Assembly: GCA_963675595.2 (NCBI GenBank)
Contig: CAXXLZ010000002.1
Span: 2,048,001-2,112,000 of the forward strand
Direction of reading: 5' to 3'
Origin: Thermodesulfobacteriota bacterium
GTDB lineage: Bacteria; Desulfobacterota; Desulfarculia; JACQYL01
Length of the DNA: 64,000 bases
Positions within the stretch are counted from its first letter, which is position 1. Each line of letters starts with the position of its first letter. Shown in pieces: positions 36,720 through 47,069 of this stretch. The notes beneath the pieces are model-generated. The model was given only the letters and a program-made list of their open reading frames with translations. It was not told the DNA's origin and searched no databases. The position numbers and the translations under genes were made by a program.

Positions 36720-36796
36720 TGGCAGGCCAGGAGGGATTCGAACCCCCATCACCCGGATTTGGAGTCCGGTGCTCTAGCCGTTAGAGCTACTGGCCT
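36720..36796 (-). tRNA. tRNA-Trp (CCA)
   Basis: Cloverleaf; anticodon loop CTCCAAA; GTTCGAAT T-loop; encoded CCA end. Confidence 0.97.
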
Positions 36797-36828
36797 GCAA
36801 AGAAAACCCGCAATCACCCAACAGGCGC

Positions 36829-36978
36829 TTACTTCGCTTCTTTATGCACGGTGTGCGTATGGCAGAAGCGGCAGTACTTTTTGAACTCGAGTTTGTCGGG
36901 GGTCCGTCTCTTATTCTTCGTCGTCGTGTAGTTCCGCTGCTTGCATTCCGTACAGCGCAGGGTGACGATGTCTCTCAT
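36829..36978 (-). CDS. rpmG: 50S ribosomal protein L33 (49 aa, Zn-binding form; absent from ORF track)
   Basis: Manual translation [49 protein letters not shown]. Confidence 0.97.
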
Positions 36979-36997
36979 GGCCGAACTCCAAATCCTT

Positions 36998-38191
<1,194 letters not shown>

Positions 38192-38232
38192 GACGGTTCC
38201 TCCTTAAAGCCTTGTACACTCGAAAAGTATAA

Positions 38233-38309
38233 TGGAGCCCACGACCGGGCTCGAACCGGTGAACCTCTTCCTTACCAAGGAAGTGCTCTACCTACTGAGC
38301 TACGTGGGC
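38233..38309 (-). tRNA. tRNA-Thr (GGT)
   Basis: Cloverleaf GCCCACG...CGTGGGC-TCCA; anticodon loop TTGGTAA. Confidence 0.97.
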
Positions 38310-38318
38310 TTAAAAGTT

Positions 38319-38395
38319 TGGAGCGGGAAACGGGACTCGAACCCGCGACCCTCAGCTTGGAAGGCTGACGCTCTAGCCGACTGAGCTATTCCCGC
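38319..38395 (-). tRNA. tRNA-Gly (TCC)
   Basis: GCGGGAA acceptor stem; loop CTTCCAA; CCA end. Confidence 0.97.
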
Positions 38396-38470
38396 TTACG
38401 TGTCGACCTTGAGGTTTCCAAGGATTGTAGTATGCGATGATTCATCTCCTACACGCCTCGAATCTGTTAG

Positions 38471-38555
38471 TGGTGGAGAGGGGAGGATTCGAACCTCCGA
38501 AGGCTGAGCCGACAGATTTACAGTCTGTTCCCTTTGGCCGCTCGGGAACCTCTCC
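38471..38555 (-). tRNA. tRNA-Tyr (GTA)
   Basis: Long variable arm; loop CTGTAAA; CCA end. Confidence 0.97.
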
Positions 38556-38626
38556 ACGGAAAAGGTGGGTTTATGACGGGTACGGGTGCTACTCGATCAT
38601 CAACCTACTCATTGATGTTTCATTCA

Positions 38627-38702
38627 TGGAGCTGGCGATGGGACTCGAACCCGCAACCGGCTGATTACAAATCAGCTGCTCTGCCATTTGAGCTACGCCA
38701 GC
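38627..38702 (-). tRNA. tRNA-Thr (TGT)
   Basis: GCTGGCG acceptor stem; loop TTTGTAA; CCA end. Confidence 0.97.
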
Positions 38703-41716: not shown

Positions 41717-42274
41717 ATGCATTTCAATCTGCTTGACATCGTCATCCTTCTGATCTTGGTGATCCTGGTCTTTCGTGGAATCCAGAAAGGATTCCTCCGG
41801 GACGTCTTTTCCGCTCTCGCCCTGATCGCCGCCTTCATGGGGGCTTCTTACCTCAGCAATGATATTGAGGAACTGCTCAAAGAGTTTCTCAAGTTCGAAT
41901 ACCTGAATTTTGTTTCCTACGGCATCGCGTTCATCGTGATTTACTGCGGCGTCGCCTTAGCCGGCTACTCCCTGAGACGGGCCCTGAACTTCGGTTTTTT
42001 CGGCTCTTTGGATCGGATTCTCGGCGCGGTCCTGGGAGGATTGAAGGCGGTATTGGTGGTTTCTTTCCTCCTTATTCTCCTCACCGCCTTCCTGGACAAG
42101 GATTCCCAGATCATACGCAAGTCCGGGCTCGCCAAATACGGACTCATGGTATCCAACCAAATCGTCAAGATGCTGCCCGACAAGTTCAGACAGCAATTCC
42201 AGGAGGGCATGGACGCGACCAGGCAGTACCGGAATATGATGGAGAAGAACCTGGATAAGCTGAAAGAACTCTGA
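41717..42274 (+). CDS. cvpA: CvpA family membrane protein
   Basis: LDIVIL, RGIQKGFLR, LDRILGAVLGGLK; hydrophobic pattern. Confidence 0.88.
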   Translation: MHFNLLDIVILLILVILVFRGIQKGFLRDVFSALALIAAFMGASYLSNDIEELLKEFLKFEYLNFVSYGIAFIVIYCGVALAGYSLRRALNFGFFGSLDRILGAVLGGLKAVLVVSFLLILLTAFLDKDSQIIRKSGLAKYGLMVSNQIVKMLPDKFRQQFQEGMDATRQYRNMMEKNLDKLKEL

Positions 42275-42467
42275 TCATCGTCGATGGGATGAACCCTCAC
42301 AAGACTTCGGCGGCGAGCCGTCGGAGCCGTTTCACCTCGGAGACTTCCCAACCAAGCCCCTCACCCCGGCATCGGACGATCGTTCCGGACCTCTTTGGAC
42401 GCTGTAAGGGGAGCCGGTTTCTTTTTTCCGGGAGGCGGAGGGGGCTTTTGGAATCACTCGTAAGATC

Positions 42468-43982
42468 ATGAACTCCCTACAGTCGGAACACCCTTTTTCA
42501 AGGTTGCTGGAATTGATCCGAACCCTACGCGGGGAAAACGGATGTCCCTGGGACCGTATCCAGACCCCCGGTACCGTGATTCCCTACCTCCTTGAGGAAA
42601 CCTTTGAAGCTTTGGACGCCTTCGAAAAAGGCGACCCTCAAGAGTTCAAATCGGAACTAGGCGACCTCCTTTTTCAGATTCTCTTCCTGGCGGAAATGGA
42701 AAGCGAATCCAAGCGCTTTTCCATCGAGGATGTTTTGTCCTCCATTACAGAGAAGATGATCCGCCGACATCCACACGTCTTCGGCACGGATCAGGTTTCC
42801 GAAGTATCCCAAGTGGTGGAGGCTTGGCATCGGATCAAACAGGAAGAACGACGTGAAAAATCAGCCGGGCTCCTCGACTCCGTACCTCGAAACCTGCCCG
42901 CTCTGATGTTTGCTCACCGCGTGGGCCGGAAAGCCTCCAAAGCGGGATTCGATTGGCAGGACGTGGAAGGCGTCCTGGAAAAGATTGAGGAAGAGCTCGG
43001 AGAACTGCGCGAATCCATCCGCATCCACGGCACGGAGCACCCCTCGGTGAGGGAGGAATTGGGGGACCTGCTGTTCGCCGCGGCCAATCTTTCCAGGTTC
43101 CTGAATGTTCCGGCGGAATTCGCACTGCGCAACGCGGTTCGGAAATTCATCCGCAGATTCGAGCAGGCTTCGGCCGACCTCGAATCCGCCCATACGGAAC
43201 CTGAGTCCATTTCCGCTGAAGCTCTCGACGCCGTGTGGGAGAAAAGCAAGGCCTCGGAACAGGCTCAAATTTCTCGGGATCCGGAGTGGATCGCCCGAGC
43301 GGAGGAAAAGCTCGGGTATCGTTTCTCACAGCCCGATCTGTTGCGCCGAGCCTTCTGTCACGATTCCTACGCCAACGAGCACCCCGAAGAATTCAAGCAA
43401 AGCAACGAGCGGCTAGAATTTCTGGGAGATGCCGTGCTCTCTTTATTGACCTCGACCAGGCTTTATCATCGCTTCCCGGAGGCCCCGGAGGGCGACCTCT
43501 CCAAAAGGAGAGCGTCCCTGGTGAACGCCCAATCCTTGGCACGAGCCGCATCTGCGCTCGGTCTGGATGAGTTTGTTTTGCTGGGACGGGGAGAGGAAGC
43601 TTCCGGCGGACGGCGGAAAGACTCCATCCTTTCCGACGTCATGGAATCCGTTTTGGGAGCGCTCTATTTGGACGGAGGGACGGAAGCTGCGGCCACTCTG
43701 GTGGAAAGGGCGCTTGGGGAGAAGATTCGTTCCGGCGACGCGGAACCCGGGAATCCGGACTACAAGAGCCGTCTCCAGGAAACCACCTACGCGCTCTTCA
43801 AACTTCTGCCCGAGTATCTACTTATTGATGAACAGGGACCGGACCACGACAAGACCTTCTGGGTGGAATCGCAGCTGGACGGCCGCTCCCTGGCGGTGGG
43901 GGCCGGACGAACCAAGAAGGACGCGGCGCAGCAGGCGGCTCGCGCAGCCCTCAGGAGGATCGAAAGCGGTTGGCGCCCTTAA
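42468..43982 (+). CDS. mazG-rnc: Fused MazG nucleoside-triphosphate pyrophosphohydrolase / ribonuclease III
   Basis: aa 1-~262: GCPWDR.QT, EETFE, ELGDLLFQ, RRHPHVF, GFDW, EELGDLLF; aa ~275-504: NERLEFLGDAVL, DYKSRLQE, GPDHDKTF, TKKDAAQQAA; one uninterrupted frame. Confidence 0.93.
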   Translation: MNSLQSEHPFSRLLELIRTLRGENGCPWDRIQTPGTVIPYLLEETFEALDAFEKGDPQEFKSELGDLLFQILFLAEMESESKRFSIEDVLSSITEKMIRRHPHVFGTDQVSEVSQVVEAWHRIKQEERREKSAGLLDSVPRNLPALMFAHRVGRKASKAGFDWQDVEGVLEKIEEELGELRESIRIHGTEHPSVREELGDLLFAAANLSRFLNVPAEFALRNAVRKFIRRFEQASADLESAHTEPESISAEALDAVWEKSKASEQAQISRDPEWIARAEEKLGYRFSQPDLLRRAFCHDSYANEHPEEFKQSNERLEFLGDAVLSLLTSTRLYHRFPEAPEGDLSKRRASLVNAQSLARAASALGLDEFVLLGRGEEASGGRRKDSILSDVMESVLGALYLDGGTEAAATLVERALGEKIRSGDAEPGNPDYKSRLQETTYALFKLLPEYLLIDEQGPDHDKTFWVESQLDGRSLAVGAGRTKKDAAQQAARAALRRIESGWRP

Positions 43983-44986
43983 GCCCTTTCATCATTCCTC
44001 TTTTCATCCCCCATCTCGGTTGTCCCCACAGGTGCGTTTTCTGCAACCAACACGCCATCACGGGAGCCTCCAATGATATTTCTCTTTTCGCCGACTTCTT
44101 AAGGACCGGCCTGGAATCCCCCAAGGCGCGCGGAAGAAGCGTTCAAGCCGCCTTTTACGGAGGGAATTTTTCCTCCCTCTCCCCATCATTGAAAGACTCG
44201 TTGCTCGGTCTATGCCGGCCTCACCTGGATAAGGGCCTCATCGACTCCATCCGCATTTCCACGCGCCCGGACACCATTAACGAGGACGAAATCCGCTATC
44301 TGGTCGGTCACGGCGTTCGCACGGTGGAATTGGGTGTGCAAAGCATGGACGACCAAGTCCTGGCCGCCGCGCAAAGGGGACATGACGCCCGCTCGGTGGA
44401 ACACGCCGTTTCCCTCCTTCGGAAAGCCAACCTCACCGTGGGCGTACAACTGATGCCCGGCCTGCCGGGGGATACCCGAGAAAAAACCGTGCGCTCCGCC
44501 CGCCTGGCGGCACGCTTGCGACCTCACCTGGCGCGCATTTATCCCACTCTGGTTCTCCGTGACAGCGTTTTGGCCGACCTTCATCAAAAAGGCGCCTATG
44601 TACCCTTGAGTCTGGAGGAGGCCGTGGATTGGACTTCGGAAGTGCTCGACATTTTTGAAACCGCCGGAGTTCGAGTCATCAGGATGGGCCTCCAGGACTC
44701 TCCCTCTCTCCATGCCGAGGGGGAGCTCATTGCAGGCCCGTTTCATCCGGCCTTCGGGGACCTTGTGCGCGCGGCACGCCGTCGGTCCCGTATCGATGCG
44801 CTCCTGGCCGCTCGAAAAGGCGCGGCAGCCGTTCGAATTCGAGTACATCCCAACCTCGCCCACCATGTACGAGGCCGCGGCAGTCGAAATCTGGATGCTT
44901 TCAGGAATCGATGGGACATCGACGAACTTACGCTGGAAACCGACGACGCACTGAACAAGGACGAAATCCGTGTCGAAACGGCCTGA
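43970..44986 (+). CDS. Radical SAM protein (Elp3-like core of the type often found next to rnc)
   Basis: IPLFIPHLGCPHRCVFCNQ, AFYGG, IRISTRPD, ELGVQS, RIYPT, AGPFHPAFG. Confidence 0.88.
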   Translation: MAPLSPFIIPLFIPHLGCPHRCVFCNQHAITGASNDISLFADFLRTGLESPKARGRSVQAAFYGGNFSSLSPSLKDSLLGLCRPHLDKGLIDSIRISTRPDTINEDEIRYLVGHGVRTVELGVQSMDDQVLAAAQRGHDARSVEHAVSLLRKANLTVGVQLMPGLPGDTREKTVRSARLAARLRPHLARIYPTLVLRDSVLADLHQKGAYVPLSLEEAVDWTSEVLDIFETAGVRVIRMGLQDSPSLHAEGELIAGPFHPAFGDLVRAARRRSRIDALLAARKGAAAVRIRVHPNLAHHVRGRGSRNLDAFRNRWDIDELTLETDDALNKDEIRVETA

Positions 44987-45869
44987 GATATACAAGTCCG
45001 GCTTTATCGCCCTCATCGGGGCGCCCAATGTGGGTAAGTCCACCTTGCTCAACCGTATTTTGGGCCAGAAGGTTTCCATCACCTCGGCCAAGCCTCAGAC
45101 CACCCGCAACCGGATACTAGGGGTCCGACATTTTCCCGGGGGTCAGATGGTTTTCTTGGATACTCCGGGCATCCATGTCGCCCGCTCCAAGTTAAACCGG
45201 CGTTTGGTCACCACCGCCCACTCCACGCTCAACGAAGTGGATGCCGTGTTCTGGGTTGTGGATGCCTGCCATGCGTGGGGCGAGTCGGAAGCCCTGATCC
45301 TCAGCCTCCTCGAACGTCTAACCACTCCCGTATTCCTGTGCGTCAACAAAATAGACTTGGTGGACGCGCAGACCGTTTCCCGAATCAAAGAAGAATTCGC
45401 GGCCCGAAGACCCTTTCAAGCAATCGCGGCGGTTTCCGCCTTGCGGGGTCCCGGCGTCGAGGGCTTGCTCAAAGAGACCGAAAAAGTGTTGGCGGAAGGG
45501 CCTCCGTACTTCCCCCAGGAGATGATCACCGATCTTTCGGAACGCTTTCTCGCCGGCGAAATCGTGCGGGAAAAAGCCATGAGACTTCTCGGCGAGGAAA
45601 TTCCTTATGCGGTGGCCGTCACCGTGGAAGGATTCAAGGAAAAGCCGGATGGGGGCATGGTGGTCATCCAGACCACCATTCACGTGGAAAGGGATTCCCA
45701 GAAAAGCATCGTCATTGGGAAAAAGGGGAGCATGCTCAAACGAATCGGTACGGATGCGAGAAAAGACCTGGAGAAACTCCTGGGGACCAGAGTCTATCTC
45801 GAGCTGTTCGTACGCGTGCAGGATAAGTGGAGACAAAAAGACCCGCTGATGGATGAATTCGGATACTGA
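44970..45869 (+). CDS. era: GTPase Era
   Basis: GAPNVGKST, QTTR, DTPG, NKID, EEIPY, KH domain VIGKKG. Confidence 0.98.
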   Translation: MSKRPEIYKSGFIALIGAPNVGKSTLLNRILGQKVSITSAKPQTTRNRILGVRHFPGGQMVFLDTPGIHVARSKLNRRLVTTAHSTLNEVDAVFWVVDACHAWGESEALILSLLERLTTPVFLCVNKIDLVDAQTVSRIKEEFAARRPFQAIAAVSALRGPGVEGLLKETEKVLAEGPPYFPQEMITDLSERFLAGEIVREKAMRLLGEEIPYAVAVTVEGFKEKPDGGMVVIQTTIHVERDSQKSIVIGKKGSMLKRIGTDARKDLEKLLGTRVYLELFVRVQDKWRQKDPLMDEFGY

Positions 45870-45874
45870 AGCCC

Positions 45875-45959
45875 CATTGGACGACTTCATCAAGGCGGTC
45901 GACGGGGGCCGGCTCAAAAAACGCGTCTGCGGACGCCTCTTTGTGAAGCGGCGTCAATG
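45875..45959. repeat. Degenerate inverted repeat, possible MITE remnant
   Basis: CATTGGACGACTTCATCAAGGCG ... CGCCTCTTTGTGAAGCGGCGTCAATG are imperfectly complementary. Confidence 0.35.
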
Positions 45960-46118
45960 TTTGTTTCGTGGACGGTCATCCCCGCCGCCGGCAGGTCGGG
46001 TCGGGCACTGATGCCTTCCCTCAAGCCGGATGCGCCGGCCCCTTTCACCAGTCTGAAAAATCCTCCCCGAGATCACGAATTGTGTTACATTCCAAGGATC
46101 ACATTACGACAGCGGGCC

Positions 46119-47069
46119 ATGCGTCAAGTGCAAGAAATCCAAAGTAAATATGATCCTTCAGCAACCATCGTGGTCCATCCCGGAAAGTGCCTGGACTTTC
46201 TACGAACCGTGCCGGACGCGGTTTTTCAACTCATCATCACGTCCCCGCCCTACAACATCGGCAAGGAATACGAGCGAAGGCTCGACCTCCGTGCCTACCT
46301 GGATCAACAGGCCTCCGTGATCCGAGAATGCGTCCGATGCCTCAAGCCGGAAGGGAGTATCTGCTGGCAGGTGGGAAACTACGTGGAGGGAGGGGCGGTA
46401 GTACCCCTGGATACGGTGCTTTACCCCATTTTTACCGACCTGGGGTTACGCATGCGCAATCGCATCGTTTGGCATTTTGAACACGGTCTCCATTGCAGCC
46501 GTCGGTTCTCCGGACGCTACGAAACCGTCATGTGGTTCACCGCCGGCGACGATTATGTGTTCAATCTAGACCCGGTGCGCGTTCCCCAAAAGTATCCCGG
46601 CAAGAAGCACTTCAAAGGGCCCCGGGCGGGGGAATACTCCTGCAACCCGTTGGGCAAGAACCCGGGGGACCTTTGGATCATCCCCAACGTCAAATGCAAC
46701 CACGTGGAAAAGACGGAGCACCCCTGCCAGTTCCCCGTGGAACTCATCGAACGTTTTGTCTTATCCTTGACCCACGAGGGGGATATGGTCTTCGACCCGT
46801 TCCTGGGCGTGGGAACCACGATCATTGCCGCCATTCGGCACGGTCGCCGCGGCCTGGGAACGGAAACCGAATCCAAATACGTCCGACTTGCCCAAGACCG
46901 GATCCGCAGCCAACTCTCGGGCACCCTCCGCACCCGTCCCATGTACAAACCGGTTTACAATCCCAGGACCGCCGGAAATCAGCTCATCCGAGCTCCATGG
47001 AATCCCGATCCAACTTCGCTGGAGGCGCCCCCGTCCGATCGCAGGGAACCGGATGACGGACAACCGTGA
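46119..47069 (+). CDS. Orphan beta-class amino-DNA methyltransferase (probably N4-cytosine)
   Basis: Motif IV ITSPPY precedes HPCQFP and motif I DPFLGVGTT; start uncertain. Confidence 0.9.
   Translation: MRQVQEIQSKYDPSATIVVHPGKCLDFLRTVPDAVFQLIITSPPYNIGKEYERRLDLRAYLDQQASVIRECVRCLKPEGSICWQVGNYVEGGAVVPLDTVLYPIFTDLGLRMRNRIVWHFEHGLHCSRRFSGRYETVMWFTAGDDYVFNLDPVRVPQKYPGKKHFKGPRAGEYSCNPLGKNPGDLWIIPNVKCNHVEKTEHPCQFPVELIERFVLSLTHEGDMVFDPFLGVGTTIIAAIRHGRRGLGTETESKYVRLAQDRIRSQLSGTLRTRPMYKPVYNPRTAGNQLIRAPWNPDPTSLEAPPSDRREPDDGQP

What the first reader, a model, noticed from the sequence alone, without database searches (positions are those of the whole stretch)
42468..43982. MazG fused in frame to RNase III inside a rnc-radical SAM-era operon
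Seen: one 504-aa ORF holds a full tandem-domain MazG followed, after a ~12-aa linker (ASEQAQISRDPEW, about 43250-43290), by a complete RNase III (catalytic ERLEFLGD plus dsRBD). There is no stop, in-frame ATG/GTG or convincing RBS at the junction, so RNase III appears to be made only as a fusion. Established: rnc and era are commonly linked, MazG has been reported to interact with Era in E. coli, and both MazG and RNase III are homodimers. Inference: a Rosetta-stone link between nucleotide sanitising/alarmone control and rRNA maturation. Two independent dimerisation interfaces could also drive higher-order assembly. I do not know this as a common architecture.
Basis: partly seen in the sequence, partly recalled or inferred. 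Interest (0 to 1): 0.7.

Follow-up and report, generated by a model that had tools for sequence, protein, structure and literature searches.

The report
Conserved MazG–RNase III fusion gene
This bacterium and its whole small order make their only RNase III as the tail of a single protein whose head is the nucleotide-cleaning enzyme MazG, a real, inherited and very rare gene fusion whose functional meaning is still unproven.

Summary
Window 42468-43982 (+) is one uninterrupted 504-codon ORF. It holds a complete two-domain MazG (aa 10-262), a 16-18 aa linker and a complete RNase III with dsRBD (aa 279-497). It is the genome's only mazG and only rnc.

It is not an assembly error. Contigs from three studies cross the junction without indels. 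All 5 of 5 species genomes of the order carry the fusion at 48-63% identity. None of the other 90 genomes of the class does.

Among 1.84 billion representative proteins, only three clusters among the best 150 show this architecture.

Gene order suggests how it arose: a cvpA-mazG pair was joined to an rnc-radical SAM-era cluster and the mazG stop was lost. Catalytic residues of both enzymes are intact in the window's protein.

The Rosetta-stone reading (MazG-RNase III-Era coupling) is plausible but untested. It is weakened by a control found here: a sister family repeatedly fuses RNase III to its unrelated upstream neighbour, an Mpl-type Mur ligase.

Verdict: a real, new domain architecture of known enzymes, of moderate interest.

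The parts
41717..42274 (+). cvpA (Colicin V production protein family), upstream neighbour. cvpA-mazG is a conserved pair in this class.
   Evidence: Pfam PF02674 E 2.8e-26. cvpA lies directly upstream of the fusion in 4 of 4 fused relatives and upstream of stand-alone mazG in 6 of 8 split relatives.
42275..42467 (+). 193-nt spacer between cvpA and the fusion gene. No recognised element.
   Evidence: RNA fold z-score 0.26. No Rfam hit. No promoter or terminator match here above chance.
42468..43982 (+). mazG::rnc fusion ORF, 504 aa, the only MazG and the only RNase III of the genome.
   Evidence: Full-length single-frame homologues in G001-G004.
42495..43253 (+). MazG module (aa 10-262) with two tandem MazG domains, collinear with E. 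coli MazG.
   Evidence: NF007113 283.2 bits vs 208, and TIGR00444 259.6 vs 148.3. Aligns to PDB 3CRA residues 6-261 of 265. The acidic residues E43 E44 E47 E63 D66 and E175 E176 E179 E196 E197 D200 are present.
43254..43301 (+). Linker (aa 263-278), variable in sequence but constant in length among relatives.
   Evidence: The K261..L280 spacer is 18 aa in 13 of 15 fused proteins, 16 in P0014 and 33 in P0015, with no conserved residue. Model pLDDT is 57 for residues 261-270.
43302..43958 (+). RNase III module (aa 279-497): catalytic domain at aa 289-416 (43332-43715), ERLEFLGD at 43407-43430, dsRBD at aa 432-497 (43761-43958).
   Evidence: TIGR02191 243.6 bits vs 166.25. PF14622, PF00636 and PF00035. 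Aligns to solved RNase III chains 1O0W, 3N3W and 7R97. E314 E317 D321 D390 E393 present.
43970..44986 (+). Radical SAM protein (Radical_SAM + Radical_SAM_C, ELP3-like core without GNAT). TTG start overlaps the fusion's end by 13 nt.
   Evidence: Pfam. Below the cut-offs of ELP3 and MnmL/YtqA. Present between the fusion and era in 4 of 4 fused relatives, and between rnc and era in G014.
44970..45869 (+). era (GTPase + KH domain). GTG start overlaps the radical SAM end by 17 nt.
   Evidence: PF01926 and PF07650. Conserved position in all fused relatives.

Best explanation
The ORF is a genuine, vertically inherited gene fusion. It encodes one polypeptide with a complete MazG-type nucleoside-triphosphate pyrophosphohydrolase at the N-terminus and a complete class-1 RNase III (catalytic domain plus dsRBD) at the C-terminus. 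It arose in or before the common ancestor of this small order, when a cvpA-mazG pair came to lie directly upstream of an rnc-radical SAM-era cluster and the mazG stop codon was lost. The former short intergenic spacer became an 18-aa linker. Because the genome has no other mazG or rnc and there is no credible internal start, all RNase III is made as this ~56-kDa fusion, translationally coupled to the radical SAM enzyme and Era. Inferred, not shown: both enzymes are active; the protein dimerises through both modules; the two modules work largely independently. On that reading the main consequence is obligatory 1:1 co-production and co-localisation rather than a new chemistry. RNase III in this class tolerates, and repeatedly acquires, N-terminal fusion partners.
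For: One frame, with both families above curated cut-offs. The genome has one rnc and one mazG hit, both in this ORF. Contigs from runs of three studies cross the junction with no inserted or deleted letters. A ~97% identical strain (X5 record 24) has 53 substitutions and 0 gaps. Of its 37 listed differences inside the ORF, 33 are at third codon positions, 3 change an amino acid and none makes a stop. Full-length single-frame matches occur in 5 of 5 genomes of the order at 48-63% identity, each with a single match. Among the 90 other genomes of the class, no match spans both halves; of the 36 examined, 33 had the halves at separate places and 3 had only one half. 15 of the best 120 protein clusters are fused, at 497-514 aa. 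The nearest unfused RNase III is at most 53% identical. Gene order is cvpA-fusion-rSAM-era in 4 of 4 fused relatives. Among split relatives, cvpA-mazG is adjacent in 6 of 8 and rnc-era in 5 of 8. G014 has cvpA-mazG and rnc-rSAM-era on the same strand 19 kb apart. In the MazG tree the 14 order-type fusions form one clade (SH-aLRT 86). One clade is not rejected for the RNase III half (p-AU 0.369). All six acidic residues named for the E. coli MazG active site (PMC10014863, passage read) align to E175 E176 E179 E196 E197 D200 here. The RNase III acidic residues are intact. An AF2 model has confident domains (mean pLDDT 81.6) but pTM 0.45 and a low-confidence linker, which fits two modules without a fixed mutual packing. 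Parallel Mpl::RNase III fusions in sister family f3 show the same route, stop loss between adjacent co-directional genes.
Against: No activity, protein or RNA data exist for this gene. No RNA run was available, so translation as one chain is inferred from sequence only. The strictly conserved linker length (18 aa in 13 of 15) and the absence of any reversion to split genes across deep divergence could mean the fusion is selected for a coupled function, not merely tolerated. One member, P0014 (the protein of G003), has lost three of the six C-domain acidic residues, including two of the three said to bind Mg (E-Q-N-E-A-D). MazG catalysis is therefore not maintained everywhere, which fits a structural role better than plain bifunctionality. 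The deletion or juxtaposition scenario rests on unrooted comparisons of a few genomes.
Confidence: 0.8

Rival explanations
1. Functional Rosetta stone. The fusion records a real physical or functional coupling of MazG with the RNase III-Era machinery of early 30S and rRNA maturation. MazG might dock Era, or sense or trim the local NTP and alarmone pool, while RNase III cuts the pre-rRNA. The fusion would then be kept by selection for that coupling.
For: An E. coli MazG-Era interaction is reported (Zhang and Inouye 2002, seen only as cited in review PMC10582724, passages read). The same review says rnc commonly precedes era and that Era-RNase III fusions occur in some Rickettsia. Here the fusion is translationally linked to era through overlapping ORFs. 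It is fixed in 5 of 5 genomes of the order with constant linker length.
Against: mazG is never next to rnc in 160 unfused mazG loci from other genomes and metagenomes, nor in the 36 split class relatives, so no wider gene-order link exists. A sister family fuses RNase III to an unrelated Mur ligase, so fusion to rnc does not need shared function. The review calls the significance of MazG-Era unknown and says MazG does not affect Era's GTPase. The linker sequence is unconserved, and the model shows no confident inter-domain packing (pTM 0.45).
Confidence: 0.2
2. The MazG module is mainly a non-catalytic scaffold or regulatory head for RNase III (an extra dimerisation clamp, or a nucleotide sensor), with pyrophosphohydrolase activity dispensable.
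For: P0014 (G003) has lost three of the six C-domain acidic residues yet keeps the fusion and an intact RNase III. P0015 has R at one of these positions.
Against: 13 of 15 fused proteins keep all six C-domain acidic residues, and 15 of 15 keep the five N-domain ones. It is the genome's only MazG. Substitutions in the ~97% strain are mostly at third codon positions (33 of 37), with only 3 amino-acid changes, in both halves.
Confidence: 0.1
3. RNase III is also produced separately, by internal translation initiation or by proteolytic cleavage in the linker, so the fusion is only formal.
For: In-frame GTG at codon 256 and TTG at codon 292. The linker is modelled with low confidence and is likely exposed.
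Against: Neither codon has a Shine-Dalgarno-like stretch in the 20 nt upstream. Codon 292 lies inside the RNase III domain. No start codon or cleavage motif is conserved in the linker of 15 homologues.
Confidence: 0.07
4. Assembly or sequencing artefact that removed a stop or shifted the frame between two separate genes.
For: None found.
Against: Contigs from three studies cover the junction with 0 gaps. The fusion is conserved in 5 of 5 genomes of the order and in 15 distinct protein clusters from several sources. The halves are in the same frame in all four relatives.
Confidence: 0.01

Closest known systems
E. coli MazG (PDB 3CRA/3CRC), tandem-domain all-alpha NTP pyrophosphohydrolase
   Same: aa 10-263 align end to end with residues 6-261 of the 265-residue chain (E 8e-64). 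The six active-site acidic residues are conserved. NCBIfam MazG equivalog is above cut-off.
   Different: Here the C-terminus continues, after about 16-18 residues, into a full RNase III. In E. coli mazG stands alone (that it sits in the relA-mazEF-mazG cluster is recalled, not tested).
Bacterial class-1 RNase III (Rnc; e.g. PDB 1O0W, 3N3W, 7R97)
   Same: Catalytic domain plus one dsRBD, ERLEFLGD signature, TIGR02191 above cut-off. Placed upstream of era, as in many bacteria.
   Different: It has a 278-residue N-terminal extension that is a second enzyme. A radical SAM gene is inserted between rnc and era.
YabN (tetrapyrrole methylase fused to MazG, Bacillus type) and nitroreductase-MazG fusions
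   Same: Other examples of MazG as one module of a two-enzyme chain. Many such proteins appear among the hits (PF00590+PF03819 and PF00881+PF03819).
   Different: In those, MazG is the C-terminal module and the partner is a methylase or nitroreductase. Here MazG is N-terminal and the partner is a ribonuclease. NF052436 scores 295.8 against a cut-off of 525 and matches only model positions 226-485.
Era-RNase III fusions (some Rickettsia) and YbeY-Era fusions (review PMC10582724)
   Same: Fusions among neighbouring genes of the rnc/era ribosome-biogenesis cluster.
   Different: Those join two ribosome-biogenesis factors. Here Era stays separate and the partner is a nucleotide pyrophosphohydrolase.
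Mpl(Mur ligase)::RNase III fusions in sister family f3 of the same class (found here)
   Same: RNase III is the C-terminal module of the gene that lies directly upstream, with era downstream. The route is stop loss between adjacent genes.
   Different: The partner is a murein peptide ligase. The fusion is sporadic (5 of 10 loci looked at, 4 genera, both states within one genus) rather than fixed in a whole order.

Membership tests
MazG (NTP pyrophosphohydrolase, NCBIfam NF007113 / TIGR00444) | Whole-protein score above the curated cut-off | tested here: met
   NF007113 283.2 bits vs 208. TIGR00444 259.6 vs 148.3. aa 10-262.
MazG (NTP pyrophosphohydrolase, NCBIfam NF007113 / TIGR00444) | Two tandem MazG domains collinear with E. 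coli MazG | tested here: met
   Pfam PF03819 in 2 stretches. Alignment to 3CRA residues 6-261.
MazG (NTP pyrophosphohydrolase, NCBIfam NF007113 / TIGR00444) | Six acidic active-site residues of the C-terminal domain (EcMazG E171 E172 E175 E192 E193 D196, per PMC10014863) | tested here: met
   E175 E176 E179 E196 E197 D200 in the window's protein. 13 of 15 fused homologues keep all six.
MazG (NTP pyrophosphohydrolase, NCBIfam NF007113 / TIGR00444) | NTP to NMP + PPi activity; homodimer | not testable with these tools
   Needs purified protein.
Bacterial RNase III (TIGR02191) | Whole-protein score above the curated cut-off | tested here: met
   243.6 bits vs 166.25, aa 279-497, model positions 2-218 of 219.
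Bacterial RNase III (TIGR02191) | Signature ERLEFLGD and the later D/E pair (catalytic carboxylates; their roles are recalled from E. coli and Aquifex work) | tested here: met
   E314 E317 D321 D390 E393 present. Invariant in 15 of 15, except D390 (14 of 15; N in P0010).
Bacterial RNase III (TIGR02191) | C-terminal dsRNA-binding domain | tested here: met
   PF00035 47.9 bits vs 23, aa 432-497. Modelled as alpha-beta-beta-beta-alpha.
Bacterial RNase III (TIGR02191) | dsRNA cleavage; homodimer | not testable with these tools
   Needs an assay.
YabN bifunctional methyltransferase/pyrophosphohydrolase (NF052436) | Score above cut-off and an N-terminal tetrapyrrole methylase domain | tested here: not met
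   295.8 bits vs 525. Only model positions 226-485 matched. No PF00590.
rnc-era operon | rnc upstream of era on the same strand, with coupled expression | tested here: met
   Order is fusion - radical SAM - era, with 13-nt and 17-nt ORF overlaps. Same order in 4 of 4 fused relatives. Co-transcription was not tested.

The most novel reading that the evidence does not exclude
The fusion is a selected, physically coupled machine. The MazG head, a nucleotide-binding dimer held at a fixed 18-residue distance from RNase III, would gate or target RNase III and dock Era. This would tie NTP-pool quality or alarmone state directly to pre-rRNA cleavage and 30S assembly. A bolder variant: brought to RNA by the dsRBD, MazG removes pyrophosphate from 5'-triphosphate RNA ends (RppH-like chemistry) next to the RNase III cut.
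Probability: 0.15. Interest if true: 0.65.

Novelty: new variant of a known kind. Interest (0 to 1): 0.37.

Why it matters
It is a natural experiment on two open points. First, the E. coli MazG-Era interaction has stood for over twenty years without a known meaning (review PMC10582724). Here is a lineage in which MazG is covalently tied to RNase III and co-translated with Era, which gives a clean system to test for a real MazG link to ribosome biogenesis. Second, it shows, together with the Mpl::RNase III fusions of a sister family, that bacterial RNase III tolerates large N-terminal partners. It also shows that fusion-based 'guilt by association' must be checked against such controls. Practically, public annotation names these proteins by one half only, so rnc or mazG will look absent in these genomes.

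Tried and rejected
I reused those 160 loci as a control set.
- cvpA-fusion spacer. I looked for an rncO-like autoregulatory hairpin or any known RNA there. The fold z-score was 0.26. Rfam found only five tRNAs elsewhere in the window. The promoter and terminator scan was not above shuffles: 3 vs 2.2 and 12 vs 8.5.
- Expression. No RNA holder is listed among the runs, so nothing can be said about expression or an internal transcript start.
- MazG-Era complex. Complex prediction of the MazG module (A1 residues 1-265) with Era (A2) gave a verdict of 'no answer' and the controls were not run. This is not evidence either way.
- Second origin for P0015. The quick MazG tree placed its MazG half with family f4 (SH-aLRT 95). 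The AU test did not reject all 15 fusions as one clade, and the constrained tree even scored higher (p 0.61). Whether there were one or two origins stays open.
- Reverse-order fusions. P0121, P0122, P0161 and P0195 looked like possible rnc-mazG fusions but are tandem RNase III duplications.
- Zhang and Inouye 2002 is not held, so it is cited only through the review.
- The search of earlier findings returned nothing for this place.
- Literature. The terms 'MazG'+'RNase III'+'fusion' gave 6 papers, of which 5 were listed and none concerns this fusion by title or abstract. 'MazG'+'ribonuclease III'+'fused' gave 0 papers. A broader architecture search listed nothing relevant. InterPro could not be queried. 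Supplements are closed.

Full report
**What is there**

Window 42468-43982 (+) is one ATG-started ORF of 504 codons without a stop.
- Pfam places two MazG repeats in the first half, then an RNase III catalytic domain (aa 289-416) and a dsRBD (aa 432-497).
- NCBIfam's curated models agree, and both exceed their cut-offs: the MazG equivalog NF007113 over aa 10-262 (283.2 bits vs 208) and RNase III TIGR02191 over aa 279-497 (243.6 vs 166.25).
- The MazG half is collinear with E. coli MazG (PDB 3CRA, residues 6-261 of 265). The RNase III half is collinear with solved bacterial RNase III chains. No solved chain covers both.
By profile boundaries the spacer is aa 263-278.
- The downstream radical SAM ORF (43970-44986) and era (44970-45869) overlap their predecessors by 13 and 17 nt. 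The 'rnc-radical SAM-era operon' description is therefore correct as far as sequence can show.

**It is not an artefact**

The genome (6.79 Mb, 3 contigs, 98% complete) has exactly one RNase III hit and one MazG hit, both in this ORF. Contigs of public runs from three studies cover the junction:
- X1 record 1 is identical and is possibly the source.
- X3 record 14 covers 42891-43656 with 0 gaps.
- X4 record 20 covers 43219-43369 with 0 differences.
- X5 record 24 covers the whole stretch with 53 substitutions and 0 gaps.

No inserted or deleted letters were listed in any run. Of the 37 listed X5 differences inside the ORF, 33 fall on third codon positions, 3 change an amino acid and none creates a stop. 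Both halves and the linker are therefore under purifying selection as one frame.

**Distribution**
- Order: all 5 of 5 species genomes (two families, five genera) have a single, full-length, stop-free match at 48-63% identity and no second match. The two halves lie in the same frame in all four relatives.
- Class: among the other 90 genomes, no match spans both halves. Of the 36 looked at in detail, 33 have the two halves at separate places and 3 show only one half.
- 5.8-billion-protein collection: 15 of the best 120 clusters are fused (497-514 aa, 41-100% identity); the rest are MazG without RNase III.
- 1.84 billion 50%-identity representatives: only three of the best 150 (P0004, P0013, P0015) match over the full length in one stretch. 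Four other two-stretch hits are tandem RNase III duplications, not MazG fusions.
- The closest stand-alone RNase III is at most 53% identical, so no close relative has split genes.
- Public names for the fused proteins give only one half, for example 'nucleoside triphosphate pyrophosphohydrolase', 'ribonuclease III' or 'tetrapyrrole methylase family protein/MazG family protein'.

**Origin**
- In 4 of 4 fused relatives the order is cvpA - fusion - radical SAM - era on one strand.
- In eight split relatives of the class, cvpA sits directly upstream of stand-alone mazG in 6 of 8. Era follows rnc in 5 of 8. The radical SAM gene lies between rnc and era in one, G014.
- In G014 both clusters are on the same strand, 19 kb apart, in the order seen in the fusion.
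- The simplest history is that two conserved clusters were joined, for instance by deletion of the interval, and that the mazG stop was lost.
- mazG is not otherwise a neighbour of rnc: 0 of 160 unfused mazG loci from other genomes and metagenomes hold an RNase III.
- In the MazG tree the 14 order-type fusions form one clade (SH-aLRT 86). In the RNase III tree they form two well-supported clades on an unresolved backbone, and holding them together is not rejected (p-AU 0.369).
- The divergent P0015, from a lineage not among the 95 class genomes, looked like a second origin in the quick tree. The AU test does not support that (p 0.61, with the constrained tree scoring higher). One or two origins remains open.

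**Are both enzymes intact?**
- The five acidic residues of the N-terminal MazG repeat are invariant in 15 of 15 fused proteins.
- The six acidic residues given for the E. coli MazG active site (E171, E172, E175, E192, E193, D196; PMC10014863, passage read) correspond to E175, E176, E179, E196, E197 and D200 here. They are complete in 13 of 15.
- P0014, the protein of G003, reads E-Q-N-E-A-D. It has lost two of the three residues said to coordinate Mg. P0015 has one R. MazG catalysis is therefore probably not maintained in every member.
- The RNase III carboxylates (E314, E317, D321, D390, E393) are invariant, except D390N in P0010.

**Linker and fold**
- The spacer between K261 and L280 has no conserved residue but is 18 aa in 13 of 15 proteins, 16 in P0014 and 33 in P0015.
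- Indels are rare throughout this alignment, so the constant length is only a weak hint of a geometric constraint.
- An AlphaFold2 model on the 15-row alignment has mean pLDDT 81.6 but pTM 0.45. Residues 261-270 score 57. The picture is two well-folded modules without a confidently fixed mutual position.

**Separate RNase III?**

The only in-frame start-type codons near the junction are GTG at codon 256 and TTG at codon 292. Neither has a Shine-Dalgarno-like stretch upstream, and codon 292 lies inside the RNase III domain. Nothing start-like is conserved in the linker. I put internal initiation or processing at about 7%.

**What the fusion means**

The Era review (PMC10582724, passages read) confirms several points:
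- The report exists (Zhang and Inouye 2002; the paper itself is not held).
- Its significance is unknown.
- MazG does not change Era's GTPase activity.
- rnc often precedes era.
- Era-RNase III fusions occur in some Rickettsia.

That makes the idea reasonable. A control found here cuts against reading much into the fusion itself. In sister family f3 the cluster is mpl-rnc-era. In five loci from four genera (G018, G026, G028, G034, G036) the Mpl-type Mur ligase and RNase III lie in the same frame. ORF listing and Pfam confirmed single ORFs of 708-853 aa for three of them (G018, G034, G036). Four other genomes, two of them from the same genus as a fused one, keep separate genes. 13 of the best 120 clusters found with one such protein carry Mur ligase plus RNase III.

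RNase III in this class thus repeatedly becomes the tail of whatever gene lies upstream, including one with no link to RNA. The MazG fusion differs in being fixed across a whole order. That could reflect selection, or simply the difficulty of regaining a start site for an essential-like gene.

My reading:
- A real, old, probably bifunctional fusion whose main effect is obligatory co-production (confidence 0.8).
- A genuine MazG-RNase III-Era functional module (about 0.2).
- A mainly structural MazG head (about 0.1).

**Novelty and score**

Both enzymes, the rnc-era linkage and MazG-containing fusions (YabN type, nitroreductase type) are known. The MazG-then-RNase III architecture was not found in the literature searched (InterPro not available). 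It is confined to one small uncultured lineage whose near relatives are labelled 'Deltaproteobacteria bacterium'. I class it as a new variant of a known kind, with interest 0.37. It is a tidy, testable curiosity rather than a surprise, made more useful by the Mpl::RNase III comparison.

Noticed in passing
L200:2505-4871 (-), L201:2446-5004 (-), L202:2520-4643 (-); also L203, L204: In sister family f3 of the same class, RNase III is fused in frame to the C-terminus of an Mpl-type Mur ligase (708-853 aa; Mur_ligase, Mur_ligase_M, Mur_ligase_C + RNase III + dsrm), with era downstream. Four other f3 genomes (L205-L208) keep mpl, rnc and era as separate adjacent genes. 13 of the best 120 clusters in the global search carry this architecture.
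   Followed up: partly
window 43970-44986 (+): A radical SAM protein with an ELP3-like core (Radical_SAM + Radical_SAM_C, no GNAT domain) sits between rnc and era. It scores below the cut-offs of ELP3 and MnmL/YtqA. It is conserved at this place in all four fused relatives and in G014. A role in RNA modification is a guess.
   Followed up: partly
L098 (G003), protein P0014: This member of the fused family has lost three of the six acidic residues of the C-terminal MazG active site (E-Q-N-E-A-D) and is a long branch in the MazG tree. Its RNase III half is intact.
   Followed up: partly
L097:4696-5695 (-) (G004): The radical SAM gene matches in two adjoining pieces in different frames (-1, then -2). 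This is a frameshift or an assembly error in this 71%-complete genome.
   Followed up: no
proteins P0121 (480 aa), P0122 (605 aa), P0161 (544 aa), P0195 (439 aa): These are single chains with two or three tandem RNase III catalytic domains (with dsRBDs), found among the best hits of the representative search. Their sources were not examined. They may be intramolecular pseudo-dimers or fused tandem duplicates. P0162 (2391 aa) holds an RNase III at 1424-1642 and was not examined.
   Followed up: no
L107, L110-L114 vs window 41717-42274: cvpA directly upstream of mazG is a class-typical pair: 6 of 8 split relatives and 4 of 4 fused ones. It is rare elsewhere: 5 of 160 mazG loci have a CvpA match within 400 nt.
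   Followed up: partly
protein P0010: One fused homologue has N in place of the RNase III carboxylate D390. It comes from a single short contig, so this could be a sequencing error or a real variant.
   Followed up: no
window 36723-38702 (-): A cluster of five tRNA genes lies a few kb upstream of the operon.
   Followed up: no
window 45957-47069 (+): An N6/N4 DNA methyltransferase (PF01555) lies directly after era. No partner restriction enzyme was looked for.
   Followed up: no
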